Both the position numbers and the translations under genes were made by a program. From NCBI GenBank assembly GCA_010909165.1, contig MU008156.1, forward strand, positions 1 through 64,000: a stretch of DNA of 64,000 bases. The letters are read 5' to 3'. Positions 5,301 through 63,303 of the stretch are shown piece by piece (the first letter of the stretch is position 1; every line of letters starts with the position of its first letter). The notes below the pieces were generated by a model. The model saw only the letters and a program-made list of their open reading frames with translations, was not told the origin of the DNA and did not search any database. Source of the stretch: Anthoceros angustus. Lineage: Eukaryota > Plantae > Anthocerotophyta.

Positions 5301-5484
5301 CAACGTTCAATCCAACTTTCCTTTGGGAAGAACTATGCTCAGTGTACAAGCCAATCTGAACAATAGAAGCAGTGGACAACTAAGCATCCGTGCAATCAGT
5401 ACAGAGCAGTTACAGATGAGTCTGGTAGGGGTTATCCCGCTTCTACGATCACTGTGGTTCCACTGGCATCCAGACGAAACGTGA
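2371..5484 (+). CDS. TOC132: Chloroplast outer-envelope preprotein receptor GTPase, Toc159 family (Toc132/Toc120-like), intronless. First ATG is at 2404; the ORF track starts at an upstream GTG.
   Basis: Acidic N-terminal A-domain; the 'IRVKFLRLVHRLG..VVAQVLYRLGLAE' motif; AIG1-type G-domain (GRSGVGKSATINSIF, DTPGL); and a C-terminal M-domain (PLPDMVLPPSFDSDNPTHRYR, GWDHDTGYDGV, QLSIRAISTEQLQ). The 1037-codon ORF is uninterrupted. Confidence 0.95.
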   Translation: MDIFDSSPERRMTAPSAAMPKTSTRQKPLPTPVAKLTPDDDFSGESAEDNGDGQLEEDEVYPRVTAAGLPVRGALEDSFSDLEPGPGLLQLEQSHKVPPAFGASGDDIFTTRAGEEPTVALLVKDEEEFFEAEEDGKTDPEATAAEEGGEGGSEAEVGRGRELEAPRPEEVDGTAAEELAESTDQISVVALDKQGADDGANSVEIQAGREMELMAILRRQDADWEGGIEGRDEEEEEEEEEGEEEEEDRSVTERSADSAAMVHGADASAGGSGSSVQPRAAGMGQAGPSLEPAPPRSRRGGGGAGAAPMPPASQAAEAHAHTNGVVSHSQEDSREQQLQAIRVKFLRLVHRLGKTAQDRVVAQVLYRLGLAEQLRGGRSGSGIGGFSFDRAKAIAEEQEAGGQGEVDFSCTILLLGRSGVGKSATINSIFGEVKTGTDAFGPATLKVQEVVGCVHGIKVRVIDTPGLLPAASDQRQNEKLLSDVKRYIKKAPPDVVLYFDRLDMPSYGYGDLPLLRTITDKFGPAIWFNAIVVLTHAASAPPEGPDGVPVIYEMLVNQRSAVVQQTLRQAARDMRLMHPVSLVENHSACRMNRTGDKVLPNGQIWKTQLLLLCFASKILAEANSLLVLQENGSAHRSGQGGPSLPVLLSSLLQQGQQVRLPDEHGGNEEESDDELDDDSDEEDEYDQLPPFRRLKKEEISELDEQQRKDYFQELEDRGRLFEKKQWREELRRRKGLKKSRAAASEQQFQEAIDDEGDRPGAVAGAIAMPLPDMVLPPSFDSDNPTHRYRSLETPPTQWLVRPVLDTHGWDHDTGYDGVSVEKGFIVQNKFRGQLSGQVAKDKKEAHLKMECIASFRLGEGAVTLSGLDVNTLGNHVAYTLRSETSFSNFKQNKTTGGLVLSFLEDVIAAGLKLENRLLLGKRLRLMVNGGAFTKRGDTAYGGSLEATLRGKDFPYNETVATLGLSVMDWRGQLVIGGNVQSNFPLGRTMLSVQANLNNRSSGQLSIRAISTEQLQMSLVGVIPLLRSLWFHWHPDET

Positions 5485-5903: not shown

Positions 5904-6492
5904 AGTAACACCCCCTTTTCAGCGAGGTGGGCGATCACCTTGATTAGCGACAAAAACATCACGGACACCAGCACTAGGCCTCCAAGTAGCCCGCCGTCCT
6001 TCCACGGGACGACTCGCAGTCAGCGCTGCTATTTATTCCAGCAAGAGTCAACAAGAATACATGAGAGATCAGAGAGAGCTCCCCATCTTTGCCTAAGCTA
6101 GGAGCTTAGCTCTCTCCCCTCGATCTCCTCCTCAACAGCTCTCCTCTAGCACGCTCACACTCTAGGCTCCCAAAGCCTCTAGGCACCAAAGTCCTATCCT
6201 CACAAGAGTGTAGCTCCCAAGTGCTAGGATCTTTCTAGACATGCTCACACTCCAGGCTCCCAAGGCCTTTAGGCTCCAAAGTCCTACCCTCAAGAGTGTA
6301 GCTCCCCATGCTAGGATCACAAGATATCTTTCTCTAGGGCTAGCCTCATCTCCTTATATAGGGAGGCTTACATCATTTCCAAAGTAAGCTAAGCGGACTT
6401 TCTTCCTTAAGCCCTAAGCTAAGTCTTACCACCACTACTTACAACTTACTAACTAGATCCAGGCGCATGCTTCTCATGCAAGGCTCGTTACT
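5904..6492 (-). repeat. 3' LTR of the Gypsy element
   Basis: Direct repeat of 10843-11415, running agtaac...gttact and followed on the plus strand by the reverse complement of the polypurine tract (ttctccccac). Confidence 0.9.
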
Positions 6493-6559: not shown

Positions 6560-9500
6560 ATATCCTCTAACGTTACCCAAAGCGGATCGAGATCCGCAAC
6601 TTTACCATATCTTGTGGTACGATTCCACGCTTTGTAGGCACGCTACTCTCGCAAGGAATTCCTCAATTTCCGCATCCTTGATTATCTTTGCGCGAGAACA
6701 CTGTACTTCTTCTTGTCCATGTCTTCTTTCTCTTTGCACAGCACAAATGGTTTCGAGTGATACATGAAACACATTGTGTGCAAAAATCCATTCAGTATTT
6801 GTAACATAAGCCACTTCTCCAATGCGCTTCAAGACTACAAATGGACCACCATATCTTGGCCTTAACTTAAGAGTTAATCCTTGAGGTAATGGGAAATGCT
6901 TCAATTTCACCCATACTTTATCCCCAACGTTGAAGACAGTTTCTCTCCCTGCTATCGATATTTCTTGGCGTGCTTGAGCCTTGGCTAAAATTCCTTTGGC
7001 AATCTCATGCCTAGCCTTCAACTCAATGAATCGGCGTGGATCTCTAGTGGTAGTATCGAAAACTTCAGCATTTAGCATGGATACCGTCCAGTCGAATTCC
7101 TCCCATCTCAAAAGGACTACATCCAAGAGAGTGTGTGCGGTGTTGTTATAACAAAATTGCATCGTCTAGATGATCATCAATCCTCTCGATCAATGCACAT
7201 AATGCCTTAAGTATTCTTCTTGGATTCGGTTGACTCGCTCGGTTGAGCCATATGTCCGGATGGAAAAGTGCTCATACATAATTCCACATTCAAGCATTTC
7301 ATCAAATGCGCCAAAATTCTCCGTGAACCTTGGATCTGTCACTCACACCATAGGTAAGCCATGGTACTTGTATATATACTTCTTAAACAAGTGGCTACCT
7401 CGGCACCGCTTCTTTGTAGGGATGAAATGTGCTTGTTTGGTGAATCTATCCACCACCTTGTCATGATACCATTCTTTGGTGGCAAAGGCATGATAAAATC
7501 CATAGAGATACTCTTCCAAGGTCCACTTGGAATAGGTAGCAGTAAACCTCTTGGTTTAGCTTGCTCCACCTTATCTTCTTGACAAACAGCACATGCCTTG
7601 ACATAATCCACGTATCTTGATACATTCCGGCCCGATAAAAGCCTTCCTTAGCTTCTCATAAGTGGGGTCAATTCCACGTGACACTTGGCACATCATGACA
7701 TTCAAGCAATTTGCTCTTCAACTCAAGAATTTGGGATCACAATCCTCCTCTTTGTATATCAACAAACCATCCCTCAGTTTGAACTTGCTTCCTTTCTGCT
7801 CTATTCCATTAATCCAGTCCTGAACATCTGGATCCTGCAGATATGCTTCCTTGATCTGTTTGTGAGTGTCCATAGGTTCAACCAGCATTGCCATTGCCTT
7901 TACTTCCTGACTCTTTTTGCGACTCAGAGCATCCGCAACCTTATTCTCTTTTCCAGGTTTATACTTGAGAGTCACATCATACATAGCTAGGAAATCTTGC
8001 CATCTAGCTTGTCTTGCATTCAACTTCAATGGTTAGAAGTATGTTGTCTTGATATTATCGATAGAGCACAAAAGATCGCCCAAGAGATAGTGTCTCCATA
8101 CCTTGAGACAATGAATGATGGTCATTTCCTTCTCATAGGTGGGATACTTCAACTCATAAGGATGCAATTTCCTTGACTCAAAAGCTATCGCTTATGGTCT
8201 TGCATCAACACTCCACCTATGGCCACGTCGAGGCATCAGACACTTCCACATCCTTCTTGGGATCATACATTCCTAAAACCGAGTTGTACTCAATTTCATC
8301 TTCAAGTATTCAAATCGCTTGACATTCAAGATCCCACTTCCAAGCTTTCGTCATCTTTAAGAGGTCGGTTATGGGGCTGCTATCTTAGCAAACATATCTG
8401 TACAAATCTCCTGCACGAAGCCAAACCCATAAAAGCTGCGAACCTCATGAATGTTCCTAGGAGGTTGCCAATCTTGAATGGCCCTCACCTTATCGGGATC
8501 CATTCGATGCCATCGGAGACAATAAAGCCTAAGAAAGCTACCTCTGTCTTGGAAGTCACACTTCTTAATTGCCAAGAACAAAGAATTCTCTCTTAGCTTG
8601 TAACACTTCTCTTAAGTGTTCGACATGTTCCTCAAGGTATGGCTAAAGATCAAAATGTCATCCGGATAGATTACAACACACTTGTCCACCGGATCTATGA
8701 ATATAGTATTCATAAGTGTATAAAATGTGGCGGTGCATTAGTAAGTCCAAATGGCATGACCAAATTCAAAAGCCCCATACACGGTCCTACAAATTTTGTA
8801 CTCATGTCCCTCTGCGATTACGATCGATAGTACCCGCCATCGATCTAGCTTGGTGAAATACTTGGCACCCTTCAACTCAAACATATCATCCATTCTTGGC
8901 AAAGGATATGCATTCTTGAATTTGATTCGAGCTCGTAATCTAAACACATCCTTAGTCCTCCATTCTTCTTGCGTAAACAATACGGCGCACAAAAGGAGAC
9001 TTAGAGACTCGATATATCCCTTTGCCCGAGTTGGATAGTTGTCGCTTGAGTTCAGCTCATCCTGCGACAATCTATATGGTGCTCTCGGCGTACTCCACGG
9101 CCTCAATTCAATCTCATGATCTACTACTCTATGAGAGGGTAAAGGTGGCAATTCATCGCATCAAATCCTTAAAGTCATCCAAGACTGTAATTCCTTGGGA
9201 TGTCTTTCTCTTGATTCTTCCTCAAGACCATCCTCTAATCCTGGAGCATAACTAGATAAAGCTCCTTCTTCTCTTATGTCTGCTTGAGCTCTCTTTTGAA
9301 ATCAAACATCGAGCACATCTCAAGCTTCTAAGATTAGCACAAACCACCTTGTGCTTTCCATTCTTCAATATCTCAATGGTGCGGGACTTCACATCTACAC
9401 GCACTTCATTGGATTTCATCCACTCTAGACCCAAGATAACATCATGGTCATCCATGTCTACAAGTGAAACTCATGTATCCTTCCCACGCTTCTATTTGCA

Positions 9501-10842: not shown

Positions 10843-11415
10843 AGTAACACCCCTTTTGGTAGGTGGGGCGGTCAGCGATTAGCGACAAAAACATCACGGA
10901 CACCAGACTAGGCCTCCAAGTAGCCGCCGTCCTTCCACGGACGACTCGCATCGGCCTGTCTGCGCATTTATTCCAAAGAGAGTCAAGAATACATGAGAGA
11001 TCGGAGAGCTCCCCATCTTTGCCTAAGCTAGGAGCTTAGCTCTCTCCCTCGATCTCCTCCTCAGCTCTCCTCTAGCACGCTCACACTCTAGGCTCCCAAG
11101 CCTCTAGGCACCAAAGTCCTATCCTCACAAGAGTGTGTAGCTCCCAAGTGCTAGGATCCTTCTAGACATGCTCACACTCTAGGCTCCCAAGGCCTTTAGG
11201 CTCCAAAGTCCTATCCTCAAGAGTGTAGCTCCCCATGCTAGGATCACAAGATATCTCTAGGGCTAGCCTCATCTCCTTATATAGGAGGCTTACATCATTT
11301 CAAAGTAAGCTAAGCAGACTTTCTTCCTTAAGCCCTAAGCTAAGTCTTACCACCACTACTTACAACTTACTAACTAGATCCAGGGCTGCATGCTTCTCAT
11401 GCAAGGCTCGTTACT
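10843..11415 (-). repeat. 5' LTR of the Gypsy element
   Basis: Direct repeat of 5904-6492 with the same agtaac...gttact ends. Confidence 0.9.
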
Positions 11416-19077: not shown

Positions 19078-19650
19078 CTAGATGGGTCCATGTCTAAACC
19101 GCACTCTATCCTAACACACATCACTCACGCATACCCTAAGTGATACGAGTAATATCCTCGTCAAGCGGAGAGGTGAAAGCAAAATGGCAAAAACTTCGTT
19201 GGCGTCCTTCTCGGGCGATGCGTCAATTGACGTACAACAGCCCGGCTGGCTTATTTAGCGCCCTTGCAAGCACTCCCATAGACACCTTCTCATTCAGGCC
19301 TCACACTGCCTGCAGGCGGCATGTGCTGTCCTCGTCGCGAACAAACAATGACGTCACTTGTTCTCCGGATTACTGCCCTTTTAACCTCCTTCGGCGCCGT
19401 GATGTCCATGGTGACTTGGTAGGCGCGGTGCGTCCATAATCCGGCGGGGCTCGTGATTTGCCGTGATTACGGCTCGGCCTTCATGCTTGTTGTTGTCGCT
19501 CCGTTCATAGCGGAGATGGGTTTATGTGTTCCCATCATCCATGCCCATGCATATGAGCATATGTCATCAATGCCTATGAACATCTGCTCATGACGGACAC
19601 ACACCCATCGCATCCACAATCATCATCTGTCAACATCCTATGTGCCATGG
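19078..19650 (-). repeat. Composite repeat B'+A': copy of the 3' end (B) joined to a copy of the 5' end (A) of the adjacent DNMT retroelement
   Basis: 19078-19190 matches 19684-19805 (about 70 bp near-exact). 19195-19650 matches 27835-28286, including an identical run of more than 80 bp (cgctccgttcatagcgg...cctatgaacat). Confidence 0.85.
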
Positions 19651-19715
19651 CTTGTTGTCATGTAATAGCATCAGGTCATGGCACTAGATGGTCCATGTCT
19701 AAACCGCACTCTATC

Positions 19716-21070
19716 CTAACACACATCACTCACGCATACCCTAAGTGATACGGAAATGATAATATCCTCGTCCAAACAGCAGAGAGGGTGAAGCAAAAAT
19801 GGCCCCCGATCATTTTGTAGGTGGCACTTGGGCATGTTAAATACCGTAAAATCGCCGATAGAAACGTCGGAACATGCTATCACGCAGTTGAGGCTCTGAC
19901 GGTTTGTCGTGCTCAATCCCCCTGTGCTCAAAAGGGCTGCCACTCGCCGTTCCTCAGGGTCGAAATATTCATCCACTTGAGCTTTGCCTAACCGCTGCCT
20001 CTCCCTGGCACGATGTCGAGCCAGTATTTCTTCTTCTTCATCACTGTCCAGCTCCGTTTTGACCCTGGGAAGCTGGGGCCCGTTCAACCCGTTGACGTAG
20101 AATTGCTTCTCAATGCATTGAGCACGCAAGAAATCCCCCACGTTATTGTTAAGCAAATACCAACATTCAGACGTTGGTTCATCCCACTCCAGGATGCCGG
20201 TTGTAAGCACGCAAACAGCCTGTAAAATGCCCTGGGATAGCCAATGGCATATCGTCCCGCCTTCTCTCGATGGAAATGGCTGAGCCATACCTTCAAGCTG
20301 CGCACATCCGCTGGCTTCTCCTTCTGCCTGTACATTAAGAACCCTTCCTTGGGCCAGTGATCAAAGACCTGATGCATAAACAAGTGATGCTCCAGCTTAC
20401 GAAAAGCACCTTCACAATAACTTGTCCAAACAAAGCTCATACATTCATGCCCGTCTGCAAGTTCAAAGAGATCCTTATGGTCATATGGGAAGTTTTCAAC
20501 CGCACATGTCTCGTGGTGCGACTCCATGTACAGCAAGAAGGCACCTGCAACTCGGGAAGGTCTCGGTCGTTCGACTTGCCAGGGTTGATACTTAGACCGG
20601 CCAAGTGCGCCACTTGTCCTCCACGGTAGATTGTGGCACAACAGTGAGGCATCCTGCGAAAACATGTTTTGAGTGTGGTCGCCTCAAATCCATGTCGGCT
20701 AGTGGCTGCCGACACTAGGGTAGTGTGACCAGGGCCTTTGTCTTGGTCACTGGTAGGGCCAAGTTAGTCCCACAGGTGTTAAACACTCCCACCACCCTTG
20801 CTCAATTCTCAGCACTATGGTGACCAGCGCGGCCACAGTCACGAGAGGTACATGCGCCAAACTAATTATCTGACATGGCGGTGACCACGCGGTGGGTGAT
20901 TTGCCGTTGCGCAACATGGGCAGGAACCCCGCGATTCGCTTCTGCATCAATCTCGGGCTGACCAACCCTCTGGTGACATACATCTTTGGTGAGAGCTTAG
21001 CAATCAACCCGTCAGTCGGGAATTGTAACCGCTCAACCTCGCCGCCTGCGGGCCGGAGCCCTAACCTCAC
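19716..21070 (-). pseudogene. Additional sense-strand ORF at the 3' end of the DNMT retroelement, unknown function
   Basis: Overlapping ORF pieces 20747-21070, 20084-20665 (193 aa) and 19716-20288 (190 aa) read like one frameshifted globular protein. No recognised motif. Confidence 0.5.
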
Positions 21071-21360
21071 GCTTTCTTGCCCTTAGCATCTGCAGCTCTC
21101 AACTCTCACACACTTCGTCATAATCCACGTTTACCTCATGAGGCCGATTCTCCCTGCCTCCTAGGAGACTACATATCTGTTGATTCTGGCGCCCACTCCG
21201 AGTTCCTTAGCCGCTCCACGCCCTTCGGCGTCTGGTGCTGCACGCATGATGCAGGCGGGCTTTATGGCACCGTCTACCCTAAAATTCCCCTTTTAACCTG
21301 CAGCGGCTGCGCGCACGGTAGGCCGCTCATACAGCCCCCCAACCCCTGAGTTGCGAAAGA

Positions 21361-21500: not shown

Positions 21501-21799
21501 AGTCAATTGGTGGCTTCACGCTTTGTGGCGAGTCCTCGTGTCCAAGTTTGGTAGGTGGCAAGGTGCCAAGTGGCGCATATGCTCTTCTGGCGTCGTCCGT
21601 CTGTCCTTCCAATTCGACAACCACCCTTTCACCTACATTTCACCACCGTAAAATTAAGCGCCCTTACACATCCAGTGTTCACGATGGGCCGGTCTTTGTA
21701 AGTACACAAAGTCCCCACGTCAAATTTCCTCGCCTTGGGTTTCCCAGGCCACCTCGCGTGAAGGCATACCGGAGTTGGTCCCGATGTTGAGCAATGGCC

Positions 21800-22870
21800 A
21801 AGTTGTCCATGGCCATTGGGATTACCCGTTGAAATAGTTTGGCACGGTTTTGCAACTCTGCGAAACACTCCTCTGGATTCTGTGCCCAATCCACTGGTTT
21901 GGAATAGGCATCTGCCACGATATTTGGCATGACAGCGTTTCGTCCAAACATGATGTAATGCAATTGAAGTTGAAGTGATCTGACTGCGCCATCCTATACC
22001 CCAATGCCATATGGCAACAACTCATCCAATGGTTTCAACTTTCACCATGCAATACTTCTTAGTCGTCCTTGAAAGTTTGCACTAGCCGTTCCTTGACCGT
22101 CGACGAGGATGGTCCGGGGCGTCTTGACGATGGTCTATCGAGCTCCGATCCAACAACGCTTGGAACTCCCATGAAACTCATTGCCTTGGTCCGTCACCTG
22201 CACAACTTCCATATCTGCTGAGAACACATTGCAAAAATGCGCGGGCTGTGTACTTGGAACTTCTGATCGGGAGAAAAGCCAACTCCACCCACTTTGAAAA
22301 ATGCTCTATCATCAACATGCAATGCTTGTTGCCTTGTCTGGTCAATGGTAGTTCAGGCATCAAGTCAACAGACCATCGGAAGAACAACCCCTTGATGGGC
22401 AGGGAATGTAGTATCACATCACGGTTAAACCTCGCCTTCCTTTGCAGCATCGCGCCACGCCACCACATTCCAGCAATACGACCAAAAGTATGTGTTTTCA
22501 ACATGTGATCGTTCTCTTGGCGCCAAAATGCCCCAACATCTTGTGCACTTTGGTCACTAACGATCTTCATCTCCCACGGGTGGCACCTCCTTGCTCACCC
22601 TCGATCAACCACATACACTTTACCGTCCTTATATGTATAGCGGCGATCGTCGTTGCGACACGGAGCGCCATTGCGTTCACCGACCATACCCATCCCTTGC
22701 CGGCATGGCTCGAGCTTCCATATGTCTCGGCCCCTTCGGCGGTGCTGTTCATTATGCATTTCCATGGCCATCAGCGCTAAATACCGGGCACATCGGCATG
22801 GATCCGAAGTCTTGTCTCGCCCGGATATCTTACGCCCCACATCGGGTTCCTCCCAGCCGGCATTGAGATG
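21800..22870 (-). pseudogene. DDE integrase (frameshifted)
   Basis: H-x-H/C-x-x-C zinc-binding remnants; FFRWSVDLMPELPLTRQGNKHCMLMIEHFSKWVEL; QHRDQLRYAFTRGG; C-terminal GPY/F-like region. Confidence 0.85.
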
Positions 22871-23378
22871 CACCTTTCACGATTTTGTTGCATGTCATAT
22901 TCGGATAGCAGGCCACAGCAAGCTTCCGCTTAGCTTCATGTTAGTCATCAGCCAGTGTAATGGCTGATGATCCGTGACAATTGGAAACTTATTGAAAATA
23001 GGTACACTCAATGCGGGCCGCCTGCAATGACAAGACACTCTCCTTCATAAGATGAATAGTTGGCCTCTGCGGTGTTGTTCGACGCTCCCGCTACCACCGC
23101 TCTTTCCCTTCCTCGTGCCTTGGGCAAGCACGGCCCCAATGCTCTTGCACTCAATCAGTGTCACAGACGAAGGGCACATCAAAGTTGGCCTCTTAAGCAT
23201 TGGCCTTTCCGGCTCTTTCAACTCTGCAGCTTGCTCCTCCTGCTCGGTGCCAATGAGTTTCCTTCTTGAGCAACTCATATAATGGCTTGCAGTCACGCTC
23301 ATGTTTACGATAAGCCGTGGCGTAATTCCAACCCAAGAATGCTCTCGGGCGGCTATATCCTTGATGCGGGCATGAAAC

Positions 23379-24251
23379 TCACCCTTGCACTTTGCGTGGC
23401 AGCACACCCCCTGGTACAATCTTATGCCCCAAGTACTCTATCTCCCTGTATGCGAACTTACATTTCTTGGGATGGGCCTTCAGTCCAGATTTGGCCAAGC
23501 GCTGCAACAACACTTCCAAGTGTTCAATGTGTTCCTCAAGATCATTGCTAAACACCAGAATGTCATCGATGTAGCATTTGACAAATGCTAGCCCTTGCAG
23601 TTCCAAATCAGCCACTCGTTGAAAATATATGGATGCGTTCTTTAGCCCGAACGGCATGGTCTCCCATTCCCATAGCTGCTCTTTGCCCCAAAACGCTGTC
23701 TTGCACTTGTCCTTCTCCTCAATCATGATCTGATTGAATCCAGATCGGAAATCGAGGGTGGTAAAGTACTTGGCCTCACCAATAGCGTCAAAGATCTCAT
23801 CGAGGTGGGCATGGGATCTTAGTTCCATGGGTGTTATTTCATTTAGAGCTCGGTAATCCCCACACATTCTTCTATCCTTCCATTCTCCATTCTCATCTTT
23901 CTTGAGTGGCAGCACGGTAGCTGCAGCATATTGCGAGTTCGACTTCCTGATCAGCCCAGCCGCAGCCAGCTCCTTGCACCGCTTGTCCACGATATCCCAC
24001 TCCACGGGACTCAGTTTATGTCTTCTGCGGAACACAGGCTCATCGGTGGTCGTGGTGATTTTGAACTTGATGCGATCATACCTCCCCAACTCGGCCCAAC
24101 TAAACGCGAAGGTCCCTCGATTTCTGAGTAACATGTCTCGGATCCTCTGCCGTTCCACGTTGTAAATCTTCACATATTTGCCAATCATCAACCGAGTTCT
24201 CATGGTTCCTTTCCTGTGGCGGGATAACGGAGGCTGCCGTGTTGGCGACAA
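23379..24251 (-). CDS. Reverse transcriptase domain (Gypsy type)
   Basis: RRMCGDYRALNEIT, YFTTLDFRSGFNQI, WETMPFGLKNA, FVKCYIDDILVFS, KCKFAYREIEYLGH. Confidence 0.95.
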   Translation of the reverse strand: MSPTRQPPLSRHRKGTMRTRLMIGKYVKIYNVERQRIRDMLLRNRGTFAFSWAELGRYDRIKFKITTTTDEPVFRRRHKLSPVEWDIVDKRCKELAAAGLIRKSNSQYAAATVLPLKKDENGEWKDRRMCGDYRALNEITPMELRSHAHLDEIFDAIGEAKYFTTLDFRSGFNQIMIEEKDKCKTAFWGKEQLWEWETMPFGLKNASIYFQRVADLELQGLAFVKCYIDDILVFSNDLEEHIEHLEVLLQRLAKSGLKAHPKKCKFAYREIEYLGHKIVPGGVLPRKVQG

Positions 24252-24369
24252 GCTCTTGCTTCTTAGGTGCGGATGAGTTCATCATTCCGTGACAAATCAG
24301 CAGATGCTTCTCGCCATTCTTTCGACCCATGGCTATTTGTATGGCCAAACGTAGTGACCTGCATACAAG

Positions 24370-25230
24370 TCATGTCGAGCTTTGCCCGATCCTTTGCACG
24401 AATGATTCGACACACGGTGTGTAAGTACCACGCACCAAATCCCATGGCTCGTTCTCGCTCCGTTATTGTCGGCTCCCCACTTCATTCCCTTTGTGTCGAA
24501 CCATGCCTTCTCCCCTTTCCTGACATATGATTGCGCGGGTCTTGTGAGTGTGGGCCACGCTCTCCTTGGCTTTCCCACCACGTTCTTGGATAGTGGGGTA
24601 GTTTATCTTCCTTACGTCTTTGGTTGTGACCGTCGTTTTGGGTCCAAGATGTCATCCACAGCGTTCTTGGTACCATTAGCCGGTGATGCCTTAGGGTTGT
24701 CACATCGCCACATTGGTCGAAGCTCCGTGCCGATGTGCATATGAGCCGATGCGGCATCCATAAACTCTTCCCTAGCCAACCAAGGTTGCTCATATTGTTC
24801 CCGAACACTCTCACGCTATCGAGGCACCACACACATTTTCGAGTAGATACCAGCAGGATGGGTTGGCCGCCTGCACATCCCGCAAGATCCGGATGACCTC
24901 CACGGCTAGTTCCATGCCTTTGCCTGAGCCACGGCCAGCTCTGGAAAAAGTTTTACACTCCCATCCCGCAATTAACATGTCCACTTTGCAGCCAATGGCT
25001 TCAATTTGACGTCTTCCTACCAACAAGATATCTGCAGGCAACCTGCTTTGGCATCCTTTGATTGCCTCTCTGCTCATCAACGCGGGGTACTCCATTCGCA
25101 GCCGAATGATCCTGGCCGCCGCACGCGCCCTTCGTCCGGCTCGACATGTGTATTCTTTGCGAATGCCACTCCTCAATCGCCTCCAACCCGGCTGCGATCC
25201 GAACAAAGCTCCATCGGATGGATGCCCGTC
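24370..25230 (-). pseudogene. C5 cytosine DNA methyltransferase domain inside pol (frameshifted)
   Basis: Motif I-like MEL(F/C)-G-IAAGLEA (~25215); motif IV VDMLIAGWECKTFSRAG (24955-24969); motif VI WYLLENV (24832-24840); motif VIII GSYAHR...TNV (24730-24747); motif IX PTITERERAMGF (24440-24460); motif X-like IGQS (24379-24390). Confidence 0.88.
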
Positions 25231-28200
25231 CTTCCGCTTTCCTTTGAATCACCTTATTGTTGATCCGCCTTCGGTAGGATTCAAAGGCATCTTGATGAAA
25301 TTTGTTCTCTGAACCTTGTAGCGGGTTAAAGGCGCTCTGAGCGATCCACGGTCGGAGGTGTTCTCGTGTCGGCCTGCACCAATTGCCGAGTGTTCACGAC
25401 ACAAACAAGCAACCTTTTCGTAATCATCCGAAGTCTCTTCCCTCATCAATTCTTCGGATTTCCTCCCATATTTCAGCATGAGCGCTTCCTCCACGCAGTA
25501 GCCGTAATGGGCTGCCGGTTTTCCCAGTTCTCCTCATCTTGGCGGAATTACGGCTGTATGCGAAAAGTCCCGTCCATCGGCTGTAGAATGCCAGAGGTGT
25601 AATGGGTCTACTCCCATTGCGGTCCATGTGTGGCGTCGGTGTGACATCATAATTCCTTGCGTTAGATACCAAACAATGCACTTCAATAGCGCATCCTCGG
25701 TGCAGGGCTTGAGCTCTATCTGAATCGGATCGTGTGATTCCCATCACTTGCTCCTTGGTACCCGCGACGTGGTGATGCGCACCTCACATGGCCTTAGTTT
25801 GTCCGTCTGGGGTGCCTTACGCACAGAGTAACTTTCTTGGATCGCGCTGTATCCACCAACACACATTAGGGAAACCATTCACGGTTACTTCTCGACCCCG
25901 ATTGTCCACCATGGCGACTCCTCCTTTTCCTCGAGCCGCCGGTTTCAAGTGTTCTCCGCATAGGCTAGTGAACCCAGACATTACCTCAGCCTCAGTGGCT
26001 GCAGCTCTCATCCATGTCTGCATTGCCTTCTTGAATGGTTGCATTTTTACTCCAAGGTCGCGCAAGCTGACCATGGGGACATCCATGGCCTTCTCCAGTA
26101 GGAGCTCCACATTAGGCGGCGTCCCTTCGGGGTGTTCGTGGGCTCGGAATCCTCCAACTGCCTGAATGATTTGGGCATTTTGAGTTGATTTCTTGCCCCA
26201 ATTCTCTTTCCCTTGACAGCTTCCCCCATATCAGCATCGCCCTCCGCACCAGGGGCCACCCCCACGGTCATCAATGCATACATTTCTCGGTCCGACTCGT
26301 ATTCTTCCAAGGCAACATCGGCGTCCATTGGTGTGCCTACACTCATTGCCAATTGTTCCTGCAATCGGTGTACCTCACTGAGGAGTGCCTTCCGTGTGTA
26401 ACCTCCGGTTTGTTTTGTTTTGTCACTTCCCCGATCTCCACCTCCTTGGAGTGCGAACTACGGGTGAGCACCTGACATGCGGCCTCAGTGTGCCCTGTCT
26501 TGGCGAGTCACGCACACCTCCTTTTCCTTGGCCCACCAATTCGATACTGCACTCAAAGGCTTTGTGTGAGCCCACCATGGAGCATTTTGATTACTGCCTT
26601 GGCGGTGCTATTGGTGGGCGCTCCTTGGCGGTGAATGCCTTCGGCCATTGTGTGCACGATCGCGAGGCTCCTTCCTTGTATTCTTTGGGGTGCGTGGCAT
26701 GCTGGTGTCCTTGGCCAGATTGTGTTCTTGTCGCCTTGGTCACTGACATCTCCTCTCATGACCCTTTGCCATTTCATAGCTTTGCTCCAACTCATAGTCT
26801 GCGCCATGTAGCATGTGGAGAAAGTTGGCAATTACCCTTCTCTGCCTTCCTGGGAGAGCGGCTATATAGATTTGTGCGGCTTCCCACATGGTCTTTACTC
26901 ATGTGTCCTTCACCAGCTGTCTTAATCTTAGATATGCTGATCTGAGGGGCTCACCGGGCTTAATGGTGAATCTGGACAACTCCTGGATCTTCTCGATGGA
27001 GGACACCGGGAACATTTCCATGAACTTGTTGAACATTTCATCCACGAGAATGTGATGGCGGCTTGCGTCGTCTTTGACGATGTTCCCTCTTCGTCTCCCT
27101 TCAAAGCCCTTTTGGCTCTGCTGCGCCAGGATCGGGCATCTTGCAAAAATCTGCTCCTTGGAGTCGCGGTAACACGTAGAGCCTCTCCGGCCAAACGTGC
27201 TCATTTTCCTCGGGGCCATCTCGGGGTGAACTCAGGTTGTATTTGAGCACCATCTCATCAATCGCCCATCGAATTTCTCTTGAAGTCGACAGCGACATGC
27301 TCTGTCGACCCGTGGCGTCATTCTTACTCGGTGCTGGCTCATACTCCATCGACCTGCGCGCTTTCTTCAAATGCTATAGTGCGGATTGGGCTACGGTTCC
27401 ACTCAAGCGTGGCGCCTGCGCACAAAGGGTGTTGAATGGTGGGGCTGCGAGCTTCGACGGAGTACTCGTTAAGTCCGGCTGGCGTAAGAGCACCATTACC
27501 GTGTCAATCCGCCCCTGCGTGACACTATGCGGCGTGCGTCAAAGTTAGTGTCGTCCCTTCTAGTCGATCAGCTTGCCAACTTGTCAATCACCTCCTCCTG
27601 ACCGCCGCGGGTGGCGGGCTCTATCTCGCCAAGGCGGCTAACTCAGCAATGGAACGACCAGCATAAAACAGCAAGCAAAAATCCACAATGTTCTCTTCAC
27701 AGTCCACCATCTACTTAGCTGGATTGGCATCCGTGGGCCCCCTTTGGCTACGTCTTTCGTTACTGCGGTCGCGGGCCTTTCGTTAGCGGTTGCAATGTCA
27801 AGCTCCAGAGAGAGGGATTGCTGATGTGCAAAAACCTCGTTGATGTCCTTCTCAGGCACATTAAATCAAGCGTGGCGGACAAGCTTATTTGGCGCTCTTG
27901 CAAGCACTCCATGACACCCTTCTCATTCGAGCCTCACACCACGCCTACGGCTGTATGGGCTGTCTATGCGAACATGACAATCAGCTTGTTCTCACGGATT
28001 GCTGCCTTTTGACCTCCTTCCGCTCGCGTGGCCATTAATGGTGACTTGCTTGAGAGGCGCGGTGCCGTCCGTAATCCGGCGGGCTCGTGATTCTTGGTGA
28101 TTACGGCTCGGCGCTTCATGCTTGGGCGTCACGCTCCGTTCATAGCGGAGATGGGTTTATGTGTTCCCATCATCCATGCCCATGCATATGAGCATATGTC

Positions 28201-31200
28201 ATCAATGCCTATGAACATACGCTCATGACCAGACACTGCCAACATCCCATCCATCATCACATCTGTCAACATCCTATGTGCCATGACAGAGACCTGCAGT
28301 GATCAGAAACAAAAGATGAATCAAAAACAAAAGAAACAAGACTGTTTGTGGACAAACGTTCAGAACTTGGTCGTCACCTTCCCAACCTTCTCATAAGAAG
28401 CTTTTCAAATCCTTCTCACCTGTCGCGGCTAGGACTCTTCCGCTAAAAGGACCTTCAGCTAAAAGACTTGGGCAGTGAAGGCGTGGTGGGCAGGTGGATC
28501 TCTGATCGTGAAGACAGCGCCACTCAGGATGCAAGAACCCTCCTAGAGACGCCAAGATGACAATGCATTGTAAGTTCTTTGGCGGGCGTGGCTGAAACTT
28601 CATGACGCGGACCCTACGCGGACGCGAGGCCGTCGCAATCGCGAGCATGGACCTGCTGAGCTGCTGGAGTGATGGCGTGTGTGGCGGCTACTAGGGTGCA
28701 GCTGTTTATGTACTGAGGTGTTAGGGTTCTAGATGGTTCGTCACGGTGTGTGCGTGGCGGTGTGATTCGTGGCGGTTTTGGTTCGCCCGCTTTGGGGTTT
28801 GGAGATTAGGTTTGGTGGAGGCAGTCTAGGTTTGGTGAAGGTCGGCTAGGTTTGGAACAAGAAACCTAGGTTTGGGTGAGGGGGCGGCGGCGGCTAACCA
28901 ATCGCGAACCTAGATATGTTTGGACCACGGCTCGGGATTTTAGGTTCGGGATATTCAAATGTGGTTCGGTAGAGAGAGAATGTAGGCGCCGACAGAGCGA
29001 GAACGGCTAGGGTTTGCTGGCCTACATAAGCAGCTTGTCTTGAAGCAGGTCATTCTTCTTGTTGTGTTTTCGTAGGCTGTAGTTGCGCTCTTGCTCCGGA
29101 GGGAGAGGGTGTGTGTGCATGTTGGCTTTTCGAAGTTTAAGGTGCTACGCTCCTGCTCCGAAGGCCAAGTTTTGATCATTTCGTGACCAAGGTCTGCTGG
29201 GCTTTCTGCTCTATAAGTAGGTCTTCTTACGTTCAGGGCTTTTATGCCGTGTTCGAATGGCATGGCCTCGTCTTTGTTGAGTCAAGGTTCTTTTTGCTTT
29301 AGGTTAAGACCTCCTCTGTACCATTTTTAGTCGTAGGTCTATTTCTACTGTTTGATGGCCACCCTTTGTTATTTTGTTTTCTTCGTTACGAATGCTCCGA
29401 CGATCCGGCCAAGGGTGTGTGGTCAAAGCCATGGTGTTGTTGTTTCAAACGTGGGGTAGTCCGAACGTCGACGTGGTGTTCGGCACCGAAGGCCAAGGTC
29501 GAAATTAGATCGAAGGTTGTTTTTGCTTTGTGCAGGCTCGGGCTTGGTCTTAGCGCGTTCCACTGTCCTACTATAGTTTTACGTCTAGTTCCTTTGTCTC
29601 TAGTTTTCCGTCCTTCTACAGTCTAGTCATTAGTAGCTGATCATTCTGTTTTGCAGCACGTGTGTCTTTTGCATTAGGTCCCATGGTCTGTTTGACCTGC
29701 TTTCCTTACAGATCTCTTTCGTTCTGGTTTTTGGCTAACAACTTGTTAAGTTTTGTACTGCTGTAGCGTTATCTTCTCTGGTACGTAGCCAATATACGTG
29801 GCGTCATTTAACATTGTTGTTGTTTCTCATCGTTGTGTTTACTTGGCGCATTGTTCACGTGTGTTGTTGTTTCGCTGTGGTTGTCTTATCCCGGTGTTGT
29901 CGTTACTTGCTAGATAGATAATTTGCTGTTGTTCATTGCAACTTGTCATGGCGTAGGCGTCTAAGAAAAGTATGTCGAACTCTTTCAATAGCATAACTTA
30001 GTCCGTCATCTGATTGCTTCTAAGCCATGCTTTGTGTACTGTGGTTGTATACCCGTGTTTCTTAACACGTAACTGTTCGTTACTGTTCGTAAAAAACGGT
30101 GTTGTGTCCTTTGTTTTGCTCTATTCGTACCTGGAATAATATGCTGTTTGTTAATGCTCTTAGTTTGATAATTTTGTTTGTTTATGTGTTTGTGCTTCGA
30201 CCTGTTATGTCTGACCGTTGCGGTTGTCTTACTGCTGCGGATACAGCTTTGTTTTAAGACTTAATCTGTTTGTTACGTTCTTAACTCACGATGTTGTTGC
30301 GGTCTCTGAAGGGATATCAGCCGCTGGAAGTGTTGGACAAAACATCTGCGTGTCGGGTGCAACTGTCACGTACATGGATATCGGTTTGGTGCAATCATCA
30401 TTCTGTAAGATGGTTTTGTTATTGTAGTAAGTGTTTATGTCAGCCTTATGTACTGATGTCAGGTTTTTTGTTTTCAGGCCTCAGGGTTATGTCAAGTGCC
30501 TCCTTTTAAAAGGTTTACTTCAGTTCGGTTGTTGTTCAGTTTCAGTTCTAGTAGTTGTTTCAGTATAAGAGTGTAGTGTTTCCATTTCAGTGTTTTCATG
30601 TTTAAGTTTCTAATTAATGTTCATCTGGTTTCTACAGACAGTAGTGTGAGTGGTTTTCGTATTCTTTCGAGACCACATGCTGGTGAACGTGACATGCTTT
30701 TGACCGACATGTCTAGTCCGTTTCAAGTGTAAGTTGTGTTGGACTCTGTCTGACATTTGTTTTTCTTTGTGTTATCGTTTTGTTGTCATCAGGCTATATA
30801 TGTTAGGCATTGTTTCAAACAGCTATCTCACCTTATTCCCCTGGTTCAGATTTGTTAAGGCTGGTGTTAAGGCTGTCTATCAGTTTTCTTAAGGTGTGTT
30901 TTACTGTCAATAAGTAGGAAGTGTATTTCTTGTTGCTTTGCTGATTGTTAAATGTGGAGGCAGGGTATGTCTTTTGTTTATCGTTTAAAGCATGAAGTGT
31001 GTTTTTTATGGTTTGCTGACTTATATCTTTGCAGGCCCACTGTTGTGTTTCTCAAATTTGCAACCCCAAGGTATTCTTATGTCAGTTGTTACCCGCATTG
31101 ACCTAGCTAAAGTGTGCTTTAGTGCAATATCTGCTTGTTTCAGTTTGATAAGTTGTTTCAGATCTCTGATACTATTCCTGTTTTTTGACGTAGGTGCTAA

Positions 31201-35299: not shown

Positions 35300-37300
35300 C
35301 GATAACCGCAATCTCATGCTGGTCCTAAGGCCTCCCACCACAAATGTTCATCTGGGCAATATATGCACGCAAGCCGAGAGCCCTTCTTTAAGATGGGCCA
35401 CACCTCCGTTGCCTTTAAACCTGAAGTGAGCCTTTTGTCCCTAGATCGCAGTACAGGAGAGGTGATGCGTGATGTCATTAGACGGATGACGAACTTCAAG
35501 AACTCCAAGCCTCCTTCGCCTCCCATAGCGGAGATGTCGAATATTGCTTGCTCAATAACCGTGACTAGACCTCGCCTCCGCCTTGTCCTCCCGTGTTATC
35601 TTAAACTGTTGGAACGAAGGTTATTCGCCTGGACCGCACTGTGCATGTACCGACCATCTCCTCTTCGATGGGCCACACATATGACCAAGTCCGGACCTCG
35701 GTGAGAATTTTCACGCCGGAGTTGGTGTGTATGCTTTTCCGAGAATATCGAGCGCGTGCAATGTGTGCGCTTCCTTGTGTTTCGTGCTTTAAAACCGTGA
35801 AAACATCCGTCAACTGTCGTGTGTGCCCCACTAGCGTAAAGCCCACCTTCACCTTCCGAAATGTACCCATGTCTACTAACATATTCGATATGCAAAAGAA
35901 GTTGATTTTTGTTCTCTCGACAAGTATTGTCCAACCGCAAGTACAAGACTTTAGGCAATATCCTTCATAATTGTGCGAACATCTTGGATGATGCATATCG
36001 TAGATTTGCACCTCAAGGTTTTGCATAGTGCAAATATGCCGCTTTATATGTATAGTTATGAACCATGCACCACCACATGTACAGCGGCACTCCTCACTTA
36101 AATTCTTTGGCCACCGTAAAAATGTGGGATCTCCGCTTTCTTGGTCCATCCCATCAATAGCGAGTAACATGTACTTGTGGGGCTCAACGTAGCGTCCGGT
36201 GTTTGGCCATTTTGGCACGCTCACCGATAACCGCCGCGATGTGCCTCAAGCGCATGTTGATATTTCCGCACCAAACAATGTACGCTTTCTTTAGCATCTA
36301 CCGCCCATGGTGGTACAATCAACTCGAAGGGAGGGAGGAGAGGCCTCTCCTCCCTCTCCTCCCTCTCTCTCCAATATGTGCATGGGAGGAGGCGCCGGCC
36401 GGCCGCCTCCTCCCTAAACCATTCCTTGTACGCACAAGACACTGATGTCAAGATAGCCATAGTTGGGGAGAGGCGGCCGCCGCGCCGCTCCCAACTATGG
36501 CTATCTTGACATCACGCCACATAGCCAACGGTAAATAGGGAAGGGAATGGACTGGGAAGGGATGCCATACCTTGATCCACCTTTGAAAAGTGTTCAATGG
36601 TTGCCTTTAACCTCGCATCGCATCCGTAGAAAAACTGGACTTAGGTATCTCAAGTGCACCTTCCAGCCTTAGAAACCGTGCATATGTCATAGCCCTTGTT
36701 TGTGACCGCTCACATTGTCGCTTGTACCGGGCCCATAGCTCCAACCTGCGTACGTGTCCTAAGATTGTATACCGCTGGGGAGCCGCTCCGCCATGGACAT
36801 GAAAACGTCCATCCACGCAAGTGCATCCCGTGATGATCCGATGATGGATTTGGTCTCGGTTATCCCACGGCGAGTTGCGACCGCACCGCCACCTTCATAT
36901 CGCTTATGACCAACAAGGTGAAAAACTCCGCCTCAAATGTCTCTCAGAGGAACCTATACCGATGTTCTTGGAATTTTTCTTTTGTCAATTTCAACACACA
37001 TTTGATTGCATGGCTTCCGAAACTCTCCAGCGATTGCCACATCACTTCTTCGCAAAGGCAGGAAGCCCTCCTCCTCGCATGCATCTTCCACGCGATTTCA
37101 CCGCAATGAATCGCTCAAAGGTTTTGCTTGGAATGTAATAGCGGAGGGAATTCACCATCGTGTCCGCCTCGAAGACATCGCCGCCCTCATCTTCATGGTG
37201 CAATGCTTCGCCTCATGATCTCCGTCGGTAGAGGGAACAATCGCCTTAGTCGCGATTGGGTTCCGCCATATTGTCGTTGGGTCTCATATGGTCGTTTCCC
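35300..37300 (-). mobile_element. Sola-like (DUF7869-type) DDE transposase pseudogene
   Basis: KYMLLAIDGMDQ (~36150), PKVLYLRLDNTCRENKN (~35900-35958), KVKVGFTLVGHT (~35830), upstream AWMDVFMSMAERLP. An inferred intron spans ~36300-36570. Confidence 0.75.
36443..36514. other. Perfect 25-bp-arm inverted repeat (hairpin), with two further palindromes at 36331-36356 and 36384-36414
   Basis: tgatgtcaagatagccatagttggg ... cccaactatggctatcttgacatca, read directly. Confidence 0.9.
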
Positions 37301-39680: not shown

Positions 39681-42600
39681 TGTGGCAAAATCCGGGGCTT
39701 CAGATTCACCCTCTAGTGGCCACACTTATCCCCTTTGTCATTTAAATACGTTGGGTTTCGTCCCATGAGACTTGTGGAGCAGTCGGATCTTGAGAGGAAA
39801 TCGATCGCTACCTACAACTACACTACTCGGCCTTCTAAACAAGCAAGGCGCCCTCTCACGCTCCCTCTGCAGACACCGCCTGCCGCTAAATTCACCACGC
39901 CTCTACCCACCCACACCCCACGCCAGTCCACACCCTACGTGAGGTCGGCTACACACGGGGACCCCCTACGTTGCAGCGACTTCACCACCCGTGATCTTCC
40001 ACTATTCCTTTCCCATCGCCTTCCCACAATTGGCACACCCTCAACCACCAACTCGGCGGCCACGCCACTCCCGTGACCGCCCGCCGAATCACCACTCCTG
40101 GACCTACAACGACATCCCATTCAGAGGTCCCGCCCCACGGTAGGTCCACCGCTCACGCACATAGGGACCCCCACAACGGGCGACTTCTCCACCCGTGATT
40201 TTGAGACCTTAGCCCGGCTTCCGGTCTCGGTTTGGTGCATTTGGGACCCCCTCCCTTAGGCTCGACTTGGGCCTTCTTCTTACTCCTAATCTCTACCTAC
40301 CCTCTACTCAACATTCAGCTCCACATTCTCCTCAACACTCACCTCAACTCAACTCCTCATCCTCCTAATCTAACCTTACTTCAAGCTCACTGGCCCTAGC
40401 TCGCCTCACGGACAACCGCCTGGGTCCGCCTACAAGCCAACAAGTTCTTCCTTGGGCGGTTGCTATGAGTTTGCACGACGAGAACCTCCGAGTCTTTCCT
40501 GTAGTCTACCCTCAAGCCGAGAGTTCCTTGGGCATCGCCACACACCCAAAGCAAAGCAATTTCCGGCAACCATTCACAAGGAGCAACTGCAGAGGCGCCT
40601 GCGAGCGAGCCTCCGCCAAGCACTCCGACACCGCAAACTCCCTCTCTACCAGAGGCTACGTTAGCTTGCAAACTTCCTTCACAAGGAGCAAAGGACTCAT
40701 GAGTTTGGGAGCGCAAGACACGATAATTTTACTTCAAGCTCCCTCCTTTTATAGGGAGGTCCTCACATCCTCGGCGCGCCTCCTGCACCGCCTCACCCTT
40801 ATTTTAGTGTATCCTGGACTTTAAGTTCGACATCCAAGCATCTTGGGTAAAATTCTATTCTAGCAAATTCACCTATGTGAGCCTTAATGGCTCTGTCAAC
40901 ATTCCTATCTAGCTAGTCAACACACCCTCGGGTTGACAAGCATGTCTGTCCTCCCTAAAGAAAAGTCTCCCCAAGCAATGAGCCCACGCTCCAAGCTACC
41001 ACCAACCCTTCAATTACCTCTAGATGCCGTCGCACTGGTGATCCCTACGGATGTAGGGCCACCCTCTACACCTCCTACGGACGTAGGGTCACTTCTTATG
41101 GCCCTACCGCCTCCACGCTCTCCACTGCAAGAAGGTCTCCCGTGAGCGGATCTTGCTCCATGCCTTCCTCTTCCTCCTCCGAGTCATCCTCTACGGCCTT
41201 CCATATACCTGTCGGATGTGTTGGGCATCCGGCGATGGATGCATCCCACATTCTCGATTCCTCAAGTTCCTCTTCTCCACGGCTCCCTAACAAACTTGCC
41301 CTTCTTAGGTGCGCGCTTTCACCATCTTGTACCTTCAAAATAAGCGCACAAACAAGCTTGGGCACATTGCTTGTTTCCACCTAGTTGTCACCTCGGTGTC
41401 TACACACAATTGCGATTTCTTCACTTGCCACACAAAATCCACCAAGAGCAACTTCAGCCCTTTTCCACTTACTTCCTCTTCACTCCACATCCCACCTAGC
41501 TCAAACTTGATGTCCTCACATACAACTCCTTATGCCCAAATCCCTCACTTGCAAGGTCCTAGGCACAAAATTCAGCGCCTTGCCCTCTTCACGATTGTGC
41601 TTCAAATCCCTTCACACACAACTCCTTATTTTAGTGTATCCTCGTCTTTAAGTTCGACATCCAAGCATCTTGGGTAAAATTCTATTCTAGCAAATTCACC
41701 TATGTGAGCCTTAATGGCTCTGTCAACATTCCTATCTAGCTAGTCAACACACCCTCGGGTTGACAAGCATTACCTCCTCTAAAGAAAAGTCTCCCCAAGC
41801 AATGAGCCCCTCCAAGCTACCACCAACCCTCTTCAATTACCTCTAGATGTCGCGCAATCCCTACGGATGTAGGGCCACCCTCTACACCTCCCTACGGACG
41901 TAGGGTCACTTCTTATGGCCCTACCGCCTCCACTCTCCACGAAGGTCTCCCGTGGCGGATCTTGCTCCATGCCTTCCTCTTCCTCCTCAGTCATCCTCGG
42001 CCTTCCATACACACATCGGATGTGTTGGGCTGTCGGCACCACAGATCGGTCCTTGCATCCCTATTCTCGATTCCTCAAGTTCCTCTTCTCCTGGCTCCCT
42101 AGCAACCAACTTGCCCTTCTTAGGCGCAGCGCTTTCACCATCTTGCACCTTCAAAATAAGCGCACCAACAAGCTTGGGCACCCCACCTTGTTTCCACCTA
42201 GTTGTCACCTCGGTGTCTACACACAATTGCGATTTCTTCACTTGCCACAAAATCCACCAAGAGAGCAACTTGCCCTTTTCCACTTACTTCCTCTTCACTC
42301 CACGGTCCCACCTAGCTCAAACTTGATGTCCTCACATACAACTCCTTATGCAAATCCCTCACTTGCAAGGTCCTAGGCACAAAATTCAGCGCCTTGCCCT
42401 CTTCTGATTGTGCTTCAAATCCCTTCACACAACTCCTTATGCACGCACACCTCCTTCTCCTTGCACACACAGGCACCGCGTTCTCACCAAGTCCTTGCTC
42501 TAGCTTTCCTTTGCATTCCTTTGCATGCACAAGCTCTTCCGACCCTCGCAGGCTTCCTAGGTGCCACTCCCTACACACCCGCTTGCATGGCCACACCCTA

Positions 42601-63180: not shown

Positions 63181-63303
63181 GTCTAGGGATTGCACCGTAA
63201 GTGCAATCGAAATGGCCTTATTGGCTAACTCCTCCCTATCCCTCTTAACAGTAACGACCCGAAAAAAAAGCAAAACAAGTCGCCAAGAGTACGGACATCG
63301 GAT

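What the first reader, a model, noticed from the sequence alone, without database searches (positions are those of the whole stretch)
24370..25230. C5 DNA methyltransferase inserted between protease and RT of a Gypsy pol
Seen: all major C5-MTase motifs (I, IV, VI ENV, VIII, IX, X) lie in pol order PR-DNMT-RT on the element's sense strand. Known: retrotransposon-encoded DNMTs have been reported in dinoflagellates and charophyte algae (de Mendoza et al. 2018) and proposed to methylate their own cDNA. Inference: if the host is a land plant, or the DNMT clade differs, this extends or repeats that capture.
Basis: partly seen in the sequence, partly recalled or inferred. Interest (0 to 1): 0.85.

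Follow-up and report, generated by a model that had tools for sequence, protein, structure and literature searches.

The report
Gypsy retrotransposon carrying a DNMT3 methyltransferase
A frameshift-riddled copy of a green-plant-lineage Gypsy retrotransposon carries a DNMT3-type cytosine methyltransferase just ahead of its reverse transcriptase; it is the same kind of element already described from the alga Klebsormidium, and in intact copies the enzyme likely methylates the element's own new DNA copies.

Summary
On the minus strand, 25238-24356 encodes a broken C5 methyltransferase (Pfam E 4e-5; relatives-only profile E 4e-22) in the order gag-PR-DNMT-RT-RNaseH-integrase-PHD. The flanks are split direct repeats A1…B1-A2-B2, not paired LTRs. 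The domain is DNMT3-type and groups with a Klebsormidium nitens gag-PR-DNMT protein, so this is a new member of the KnitGypsy-Dnmt3 kind (de Mendoza 2018), not a new capture. The family is large: 421 clusters at E≤1e-30, with RT relatives in Closterium, Coleochaete and liverworts and DNMT-bearing copies in Marchantia. The domain sits in two Pol positions separated by one move; 82 of 146 relatives, and this copy, have Glu-Cys for Pro-Cys, and 142 of 145 keep four key residues. The host is a streptophyte, probably seed-free, unresolved. Many frameshifts look like read errors. Activity is unproven: the Klebsormidium domain was negative in yeast. This scan already noted moss copies and the split repeats on other DNA.

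The parts
27824..28288 (-). Repeat A1, the 5' end of the element; starts with TG and a 9-mer whose reverse complement lies right behind B1
   Evidence: 395 matches in 491 columns to A2; the 9-mer and its reverse complement each occur once on the minus strand of the window
26426..27250 (-). gag-like region with a degenerate zinc-knuckle position, broken
   Evidence: aligns to gag of K. nitens P0396, score 79 vs at most 56 in 5 shuffles; no Pfam hit
25556..25921 (-). aspartic-protease-like region, broken, weakly supported
   Evidence: 64 vs at most 39 in 8 shuffles with Marchantia P0029; best of 160 windows; not above background with three other relatives
24356..25238 (-). DNMT3-type C5 cytosine methyltransferase domain, about 6-10 frame breaks, motif IV G-W-E-C, motif VI E-N-V
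23250..24155 (-). Gypsy reverse transcriptase, YIDD at 23573-23562
   Evidence: RVT_1 E 1.1e-30; 54% to P0001
22904..23245 (-). RNase H, broken
   Evidence: 59 of 112 identical to P0001; tblastn
21687..22592 (-). DDE integrase (zinc-binding and core), broken
   Evidence: rve E 2.3e-4; 141 of 297 identical to P0002
21363..21491 (-). PHD finger at the integrase tail
   Evidence: PF00628 E 2.1e-12
19800..21250 (-). extra sense-strand ORF-like region of unknown kind, broken; no tyrosine-recombinase signal
   Evidence: two open stretches of 199 and 193 codons, matched by 0 of 1000 base shuffles; no Pfam, NCBIfam or PHROG family at the thresholds that count; fold unusable, pLDDT 34
19684..19803 (-). 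Repeat B1
   Evidence: 108 matches, 1 mismatch, 9 gap openings in 122 columns to B2; score 160 vs at most 30 in 200 shuffles
19650..19683 (-). B1-A2 junction holding the inverted copy of the A1 start
   Evidence: 8-pair stem, folding energy not unusual, z -0.93
19184..19649 (-). Repeat A2
19078..19188 (-). Repeat B2, the 3' end of the element as read here

Best explanation
This is a broken-looking copy of the streptophyte Gypsy-DNMT3 retrotransposon family (gag-PR-DNMT3-RT-RNaseH-integrase-PHD, split direct repeats), whose methyltransferase is likely packaged in the particle and likely methylates cytosines in the element's own newly made cDNA. Shown here: the domain, its DNMT3 type, its place, its kinship to the Klebsormidium element, and conservation of the catalytic residues across the family. 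Inferred: the domain is made with Gag-protease (in many relatives as the end of that ORF, in others fused on to RT), is released or held next to RT in the particle, and marks the cDNA before integration, so that new copies arrive looking like host DNA; the PHD finger likely steers integration by reading histone H3 tails. Family membership about 0.9; the cis-methylation mechanism about 0.5.
For: Profile A2 ranks 29 DNMT3A/B/C chains (73.6-56.3 bits) above HhaI (38.9) and DRM2 (35), with no DNMT1 among 53 hits. A model of the P0001 domain (pLDDT 55) matches DNMT3A best, E 1.1e-12, TM about 0.5. In a 102-row DNMT tree the window falls among the 25 rows with DNMT ahead of RT (SH-aLRT 95), nearest by path to P0396, which is K. 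nitens KFL_013780020; 85 of 239 residues are identical and the gag region aligns too. The window's RT lies in an 18-row clade at 100/100 with Marchantia, Calypogeia-cluster, Coleochaete and Closterium rows. 11 of 38 rows of that RT clade carry the domain; 26 of the other 27 begin within 101 residues of RT and cannot show it. Of the best 150 relatives, 94 carry PR, RT, integrase or PHD beside the DNMT; 142 of 145 keep the motif IV Cys, motif VI Glu and both motif VIII Arg. The repeat layout matches the Fig. 4c legend for KnitGypsy-Dnmt3 and the A1/B1-A2-B2 definition. The paper reports Ka/Ks < 0.2 for the Klebsormidium domain and CG activity for the related SymbioDIRS-Dnmt3 domains.
Against: No activity has been shown for this family: KnitGypsy-Dnmt3 gave no methylation in yeast, as did human DNMT3B in the same test. 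The window and 82 of 146 relatives have Glu before the catalytic Cys; its effect is untested. The element shows no CpG loss (o/e 0.82 against 0.61 in the host gene and in another Gypsy remnant, 0.80-0.88 in flanks), though active SymbioDIRS show none either. The window row fills only 30% of the tree's columns and the tree is a quick one without host DNMT3 outgroups; a smaller tree left the window unresolved. One clade row (P0028) has 393 residues ahead of RT and no DNMT, so the domain can be absent. That P0396 is one of the published KnitGypsy-Dnmt3 copies is inferred; their sequences were not seen.
Confidence: 0.6

Rival explanations
1. The domain is kept by selection as a nucleic-acid- or SAM-binding module with little or no methyl transfer, at least in the Glu-Cys lineages.
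For: Negative yeast test for the Klebsormidium domain; Pro-to-Glu at motif IV in 82 of 146 rows, switching 12 times on the tree; no CpG loss.
Against: 142 of 145 rows keep Cys, Glu, Arg, Arg, which a pure binding module would not need; the one K. nitens protein seen here has Pro-Cys, so Glu need not explain the negative test.
Confidence: 0.2
2. The enzyme is active but works on chromatin after or around integration (flanking host DNA, older copies, or invading viral DNA), with the PHD finger as its targeting reader, and not on free cDNA.
For: The commonest layout puts DNMT directly ahead of integrase-PHD (76 of 94 rows with neighbours), a writer-reader pairing like animal DNMT3 with its ADD domain (recalled); self-limiting and antiviral roles are proposed in print.
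Against: In the window's subgroup the domain is separated from integrase-PHD by RT and RNase H, and 8 of 12 PR-DNMT rows end within 26 residues after the domain (some may be cut by contig ends). K. nitens has an ordinary plant-like methylome.
Confidence: 0.17
3. A one-off insertion of a host or bacterial methyltransferase into this copy, or an assembly chimera.
For: The assembly looks error-prone here; no contig of run X1 bridges DNMT to RT.
Against: Unbroken relatives have the same order (P0015, P0016: PR-DNMT-RT-RH-INT-PHD); the best RT hit also carries the domain; the DNMT groups by Pol position.
Confidence: 0.02

Closest known systems
KnitGypsy-Dnmt3 of Klebsormidium nitens (de Mendoza et al. 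2018, PMC5890265; seen: abstract, passages, text parts 2, 4, 5 of 7, Fig. 4 legend, passages of the review file, two rows of Supplementary Data 1; figures and the main supplement not seen)
   Same: Unrearranged DNMT3 inside a Gypsy element; DIRS-type repeat layout with Gypsy domains; K. nitens protein GAQ93235.1 has gag-PR-DNMT and is the window's nearest DNMT by tree path.
   Different: Different host and only 36% identity in the domain; Glu-Cys against Pro-Cys at motif IV; PHD finger (0 occurrences of 'PHD' in the paper's main text, though the figure may show one); extra 3' ORF; the family reaches liverworts and has a second Pol position.
SymbioDIRS-Dnmt3 of Symbiodinium (same paper)
   Same: DNMT3 in Pol, split-repeat layout, two domain orders; CG activity shown in yeast.
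   Different: DIRS elements with tyrosine recombinase; here a DDE integrase and protease, no recombinase signal.
Ngaro/PAT/VIPER elements with split direct repeats (PMC9210276, passages)
   Same: A1 at the 5' end, B1-A2-B2 at the 3' end.
   Different: They integrate by tyrosine recombinase; this element has Gypsy RT and DDE integrase.
EpiLTRs of Cymbomonas and Euglena (bioRxiv 10.64898/2026.05.21.726589, passages)
   Same: LTR elements joining a methylation writer and a chromatin reader.
   Different: DNMT4-sister clade plus DAM and chromodomain; the authors call it distinct from streptophyte Gypsy-DNMT3.
Gypsy-7a_cRei of Chlamydomonas (PMC9940879, passages)
   Same: Gypsy polyprotein with a PHD finger, proposed to bias insertion.
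   Different: Paired LTRs and no methyltransferase in the listed domains.

Membership tests
Streptophyte Gypsy-DNMT3 (KnitGypsy-Dnmt3 kind) | Gypsy domain set and order with DDE integrase after RT-RNase H | tested here: met
   protease only weakly supported
Streptophyte Gypsy-DNMT3 (KnitGypsy-Dnmt3 kind) | DNMT3-type domain with motifs in unrearranged order | tested here: met
Streptophyte Gypsy-DNMT3 (KnitGypsy-Dnmt3 kind) | DNMT groups with K. nitens retro-DNMT3 | tested here: met
   quick tree, window row 30% filled, one named K. nitens protein
Streptophyte Gypsy-DNMT3 (KnitGypsy-Dnmt3 kind) | DIRS-type split repeats | tested here: met
   against the legend and the definition
Streptophyte Gypsy-DNMT3 (KnitGypsy-Dnmt3 kind) | DNMT in one ORF with RT and RNase H | tested here: inconclusive
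   frame breaks hide it in the window; fused in P0001, P0015, P0016, P0029; ORF ends soon after the DNMT in 8 of 12 PR-DNMT rows
Streptophyte Gypsy-DNMT3 (KnitGypsy-Dnmt3 kind) | Purifying selection on the DNMT among genomic copies | not testable with these tools
   no genome held; residue conservation across the family as a proxy
Active C5 DNA methyltransferase | Catalytic Cys (IV), Glu (VI), Arg-x-Arg (VIII), SAM-binding motifs I and X | tested here: inconclusive
   Cys and ENV lie in one open stretch; I, VIII and X are cut by frame breaks; Glu replaces Pro
Active C5 DNA methyltransferase | Methyl transfer | not testable with these tools
   needs an assay; published test of the K. nitens domain negative and inconclusive
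DRM / DNMT1-CMT / bacterial Dcm | Best match and motif order of those classes | tested here: not met
   DRM2 35 bits, HhaI 39, DNMT1 absent, against DNMT3 73; TIGR00675 20 bits against a cut-off of 100
DIRS/Ngaro (tyrosine-recombinase retrotransposons) | Tyrosine recombinase, no DDE integrase | tested here: not met
   DDE integrase present; no H-x-x-R pattern or recombinase family in the 3' ORF, which is broken, so absence is weak
Canonical LTR retrotransposon | Paired full LTRs with PBS, PPT and target-site duplication | tested here: not met
   split repeats; no PBS behind A1, no clear PPT at B1; no target-site duplication seen by eye

The most novel reading that the evidence does not exclude
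An ancient green-lineage Gypsy superfamily, hundreds of families strong and present in land plants, pairs an active DNMT3 with a non-standard Glu-Cys catalytic loop and a PHD reader, moved the enzyme once within Pol, and integrates with a DDE integrase that cuts an internal inverted-repeat junction of a circular or permuted intermediate, which would explain the split repeats. This copy may be nearly intact, its frameshifts being read errors.
Probability: 0.25. Interest if true: 0.72.

Novelty: new member of a known kind. Interest (0 to 1): 0.42.

Why it matters
The capture is published, so this copy alone is not news. It matters as a handle on an open question: whether the Gypsy-borne DNMT3 is active and on what. 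The calls here give a large set of naturally unbroken domains, two motif IV types and two Pol positions to compare, and copies in Marchantia, a genetic model. Print places the family in charophyte algae and says transposon methylases are absent from land plants such as tracheophytes; searches found no paper on liverwort or moss copies, the Glu-Cys motif or the second position, but subscription journals and unseen supplements may hold one.

Tried and rejected
No genome was held, so copy number, selection and target sites were not measured. The word-based search with the broken DNMT piece found nothing, nor did the PDB search with it. Locus scans gave no full-length relative: metagenomes 3 loci, of which L001 is a 1.2-kb relative and L003 a viral-looking unrelated DNMT; viral contigs 1 weak locus and then none. 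Sequencing runs: one DNA holder, share 0.07, no RNA holder listed; uncovered parts prove nothing. The extra ORF stayed unnamed; the Atlas did not answer for it, and for P0027 gave only leads under 0.9. The host lineage was not resolved. A PBS-like site at 28558-28538 was considered as the element's own; rejected because no matching 3' LTR was found. Reading B+A as the true LTR found no clear PPT or PBS. DNMT-bearing RT rows are not one clade against rows that begin at RT (AU p 2e-56), which fits hidden upstream domains or losses and does not test origin. No tRNA genes; the bacterial promoter scan was uninformative. No notes on this genome or look-alike windows. My notebook count '10 of 38' was a miscount; one search gives 11 of 38.

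Full report
Observation. The element lies on the minus strand from about 28288 to 19078. Six-frame reading and Pfam give RT (E 1.1e-30), integrase core (E 2.3e-4), a PHD finger (E 2.1e-12) and, at 24811-25248, PF00145 (E 4e-5, above the cut-off). A profile from 10 relatives, without the window, hits that piece at E 4.3e-22 among 2513 pieces and picks up three later pieces in order, two of them weak. Frameshift-aware alignment with X at breaks scores 242 against at most 50 in 12 shuffles. Motifs IV and VI lie in one open stretch; I, VIII, IX and X are spread over frames, and motif I alone is not above background. The protease region is supported only through the Marchantia relative and P0303/P0364-type rows, and not by three others. 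The gag region aligns to a Klebsormidium gag.

Kind of methyltransferase. A profile of four relatives plus the window's open piece ranks 29 DNMT3 chains above HhaI and DRM2, with no DNMT1 among 53 hits. A modest model of the P0001 domain (pLDDT 55) matches DNMT3A best. The window piece alone found nothing in the PDB, so the class rests on its relatives.

Family. The window's RT found 108 proteins, 5 with PF00145 on record, among them the best hit and two Marchantia polymorpha gene models. A 26-row RT tree puts the window in an 18-row clade at 100/100 with Marchantia, a Calypogeia cluster, Coleochaete, Closterium and unnamed rows (63-row quick tree). Of 38 clade rows, 11 carry the domain, 9 ahead of RT and 2 behind RNase H; 26 of the other 27 start within 101 residues of RT and are uninformative, and one lacks it. 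The full profile search gave 421 clusters at E≤1e-30. Of the best 150, 94 carry retroelement domains beside the DNMT: 48 with RT ahead, 28 with integrase behind and no RT seen, 18 with protease ahead or RT behind; 56 show the DNMT alone and were left out of the tree. In a 102-row DNMT tree the position label changes once (SH-aLRT 95; shuffled mean 22.5), and the window lies among the 25 'ahead of RT' rows, nearest by path to P0396. It has gag-PR-DNMT, 85 of 239 identities to the window's domain, and Pro-Cys at motif IV. The tree has no host-gene outgroup, so the direction of the move is unknown.

Catalytic residues. Cys is kept in 145 of 146 rows; the residue before it is Glu in 82, Pro in 51, other in 13, with 12 Glu/Pro changes on the tree. 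142 of 145 rows keep Cys, Glu, Arg and Arg together. This argues for a working enzyme by inference; no assay was run here.

Ends. Self-comparison shows A1 (28285-27824), B1 (19803-19684), A2 (19649-19184) and B2 (19188-19078), the split-repeat order defined for Ngaro and PAT (PMC9210276, passages). The KnitGypsy-Dnmt3 figure legend describes DIRS-type repeats with Gypsy domains. The 9-mer that opens A1 occurs once on the minus strand, and its reverse complement once, directly behind B1; this was noticed after the fact, B2 lacks it, and the hairpin energy is ordinary. It fits, but does not show, a circularly permuted LTR cut at the B-A junction; that wording is taken from note e1-7364823. An extra ORF-like region follows the PHD finger and has no family match.

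Dead or misread. Alignment finds 24 frame breaks and 1 in-frame stop in 2837 bases. In simulated decay, groups of about 2.7 kb had at most one stop in 1 of 10 cases at 5 substitutions per indel and 0 of 10 at 10, but in 9-10 of 10 at 0-1; the 5-10 range for natural decay is recalled. B1 and B2 differ by 1 mismatch and 9 gap openings. Three long contigs of run X1 differ from the window by 4, 0 and 5 substitutions and 4, 8 and 3 gaps (3 of 6 laid); X1 may be the source sample and is not independent. So many breaks are probably read errors. Against youth: A1 and A2 differ by 42 mismatches in 491 columns.

Host. An intact Toc159-family ORF at 2356-5484 is 65-66% identical to liverwort proteins at best (120 of 1859 hits listed). 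It falls in no starred group; joining ferns (p 0.0497) or seed plants (0.054) is borderline rejected, while mosses, liverworts, lycophytes and the one algal row are not (16 rows; no hornwort, Chara, Coleochaete or Klebsormidium row). Labelling the SM000009 row as an alga is recalled. A land-plant host is therefore neither shown nor excluded.

Mechanism. Most likely (inferred): the domain is packaged with Gag-protease, sits beside RT and methylates cDNA in cis, as the authors argue from the architecture, while the PHD finger likely biases insertion, as proposed for Gypsy-7a_cRei (PMC9940879, passages). Against: the K. nitens domain was negative in yeast and the element shows no CpG loss. Rivals are a non-catalytic binding role and action on chromatin in trans.

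Literature seen. PMC5890265: abstract, passages, text parts 2, 4, 5 of 7, review-file passages, two supplement rows; its main supplement was too large to read and may show motif IV or a PHD. PMC6338049: parts 1-2 of 4. Passages only: bioRxiv 2026.05.21.726589 (16, 48; supplements closed), PMC12344493 (17, one table row 82), PMC5784723, PMC6453930, PMC10714607, PMC6317226, PMC8557442, PMC10952607, PMC9210276, PMC9940879. Searches found the family named in two papers only and nothing on land-plant copies.

Verdict. Real; a new member of a published kind; earlier notes of this scan record moss copies and the split repeats on other DNA (unchecked). The added value is the family's size and range, the single move within Pol, and the Glu-Cys motif, which make the activity question testable. 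Interest 0.42.

Noticed in passing
window 2356-5484 (+): Intact single ORF of 1042 codons for a Toc159/132-family chloroplast import GTPase, a long branch that fits no sampled moss, liverwort, fern or seed-plant group with support.
   Followed up: partly
window 28558-28538 (-): CA followed by a primer-binding-site-like TGGCG stretch, 270 bp upstream of A1, with no matching 3' LTR in the window; may belong to an outer element into which this one inserted.
   Followed up: partly
window 6600-9300 (-): A second, unrelated and broken Gypsy pol remnant (RT-RNase H-integrase tail), about 24-27% identical to the DNMT family, with repeats at 6150-6299 and 11075-11226.
   Followed up: no
window 35596-36245 (-): Broken DUF7869 remnant, probably a DNA-transposon-like gene (Pfam E 1.3e-6 and 4.3e-4).
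   Followed up: no
window 40800-46900, 48000-51100, 55000-57900, 61700-63200: Long near-identical tandem units (about 460, 750-800, 820 and 1100-1250 bp) with strong strand skew; likely internal arrays of other large retroelements.
   Followed up: no
P0027 and P0029 (Marchantia Mp2g26090, MARPO_0091s0058): Gene models labelled hypothetical or reverse transcriptase that are PR-DNMT3-RT-RNase H retrotransposon remnants, i.e. land-plant members of the family.
   Followed up: yes
P0057, P0024 and 48 of P0268-P0417: A larger sister group with the same DNMT between RNase H and integrase; the hosts looked up were unnamed. P0286 also ends in a Tudor domain.
   Followed up: partly
L003 2534-3790 (+): A C5 methyltransferase among genes that look like those of a large DNA virus; unrelated to the retroelement family, used as an outgroup.
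   Followed up: no
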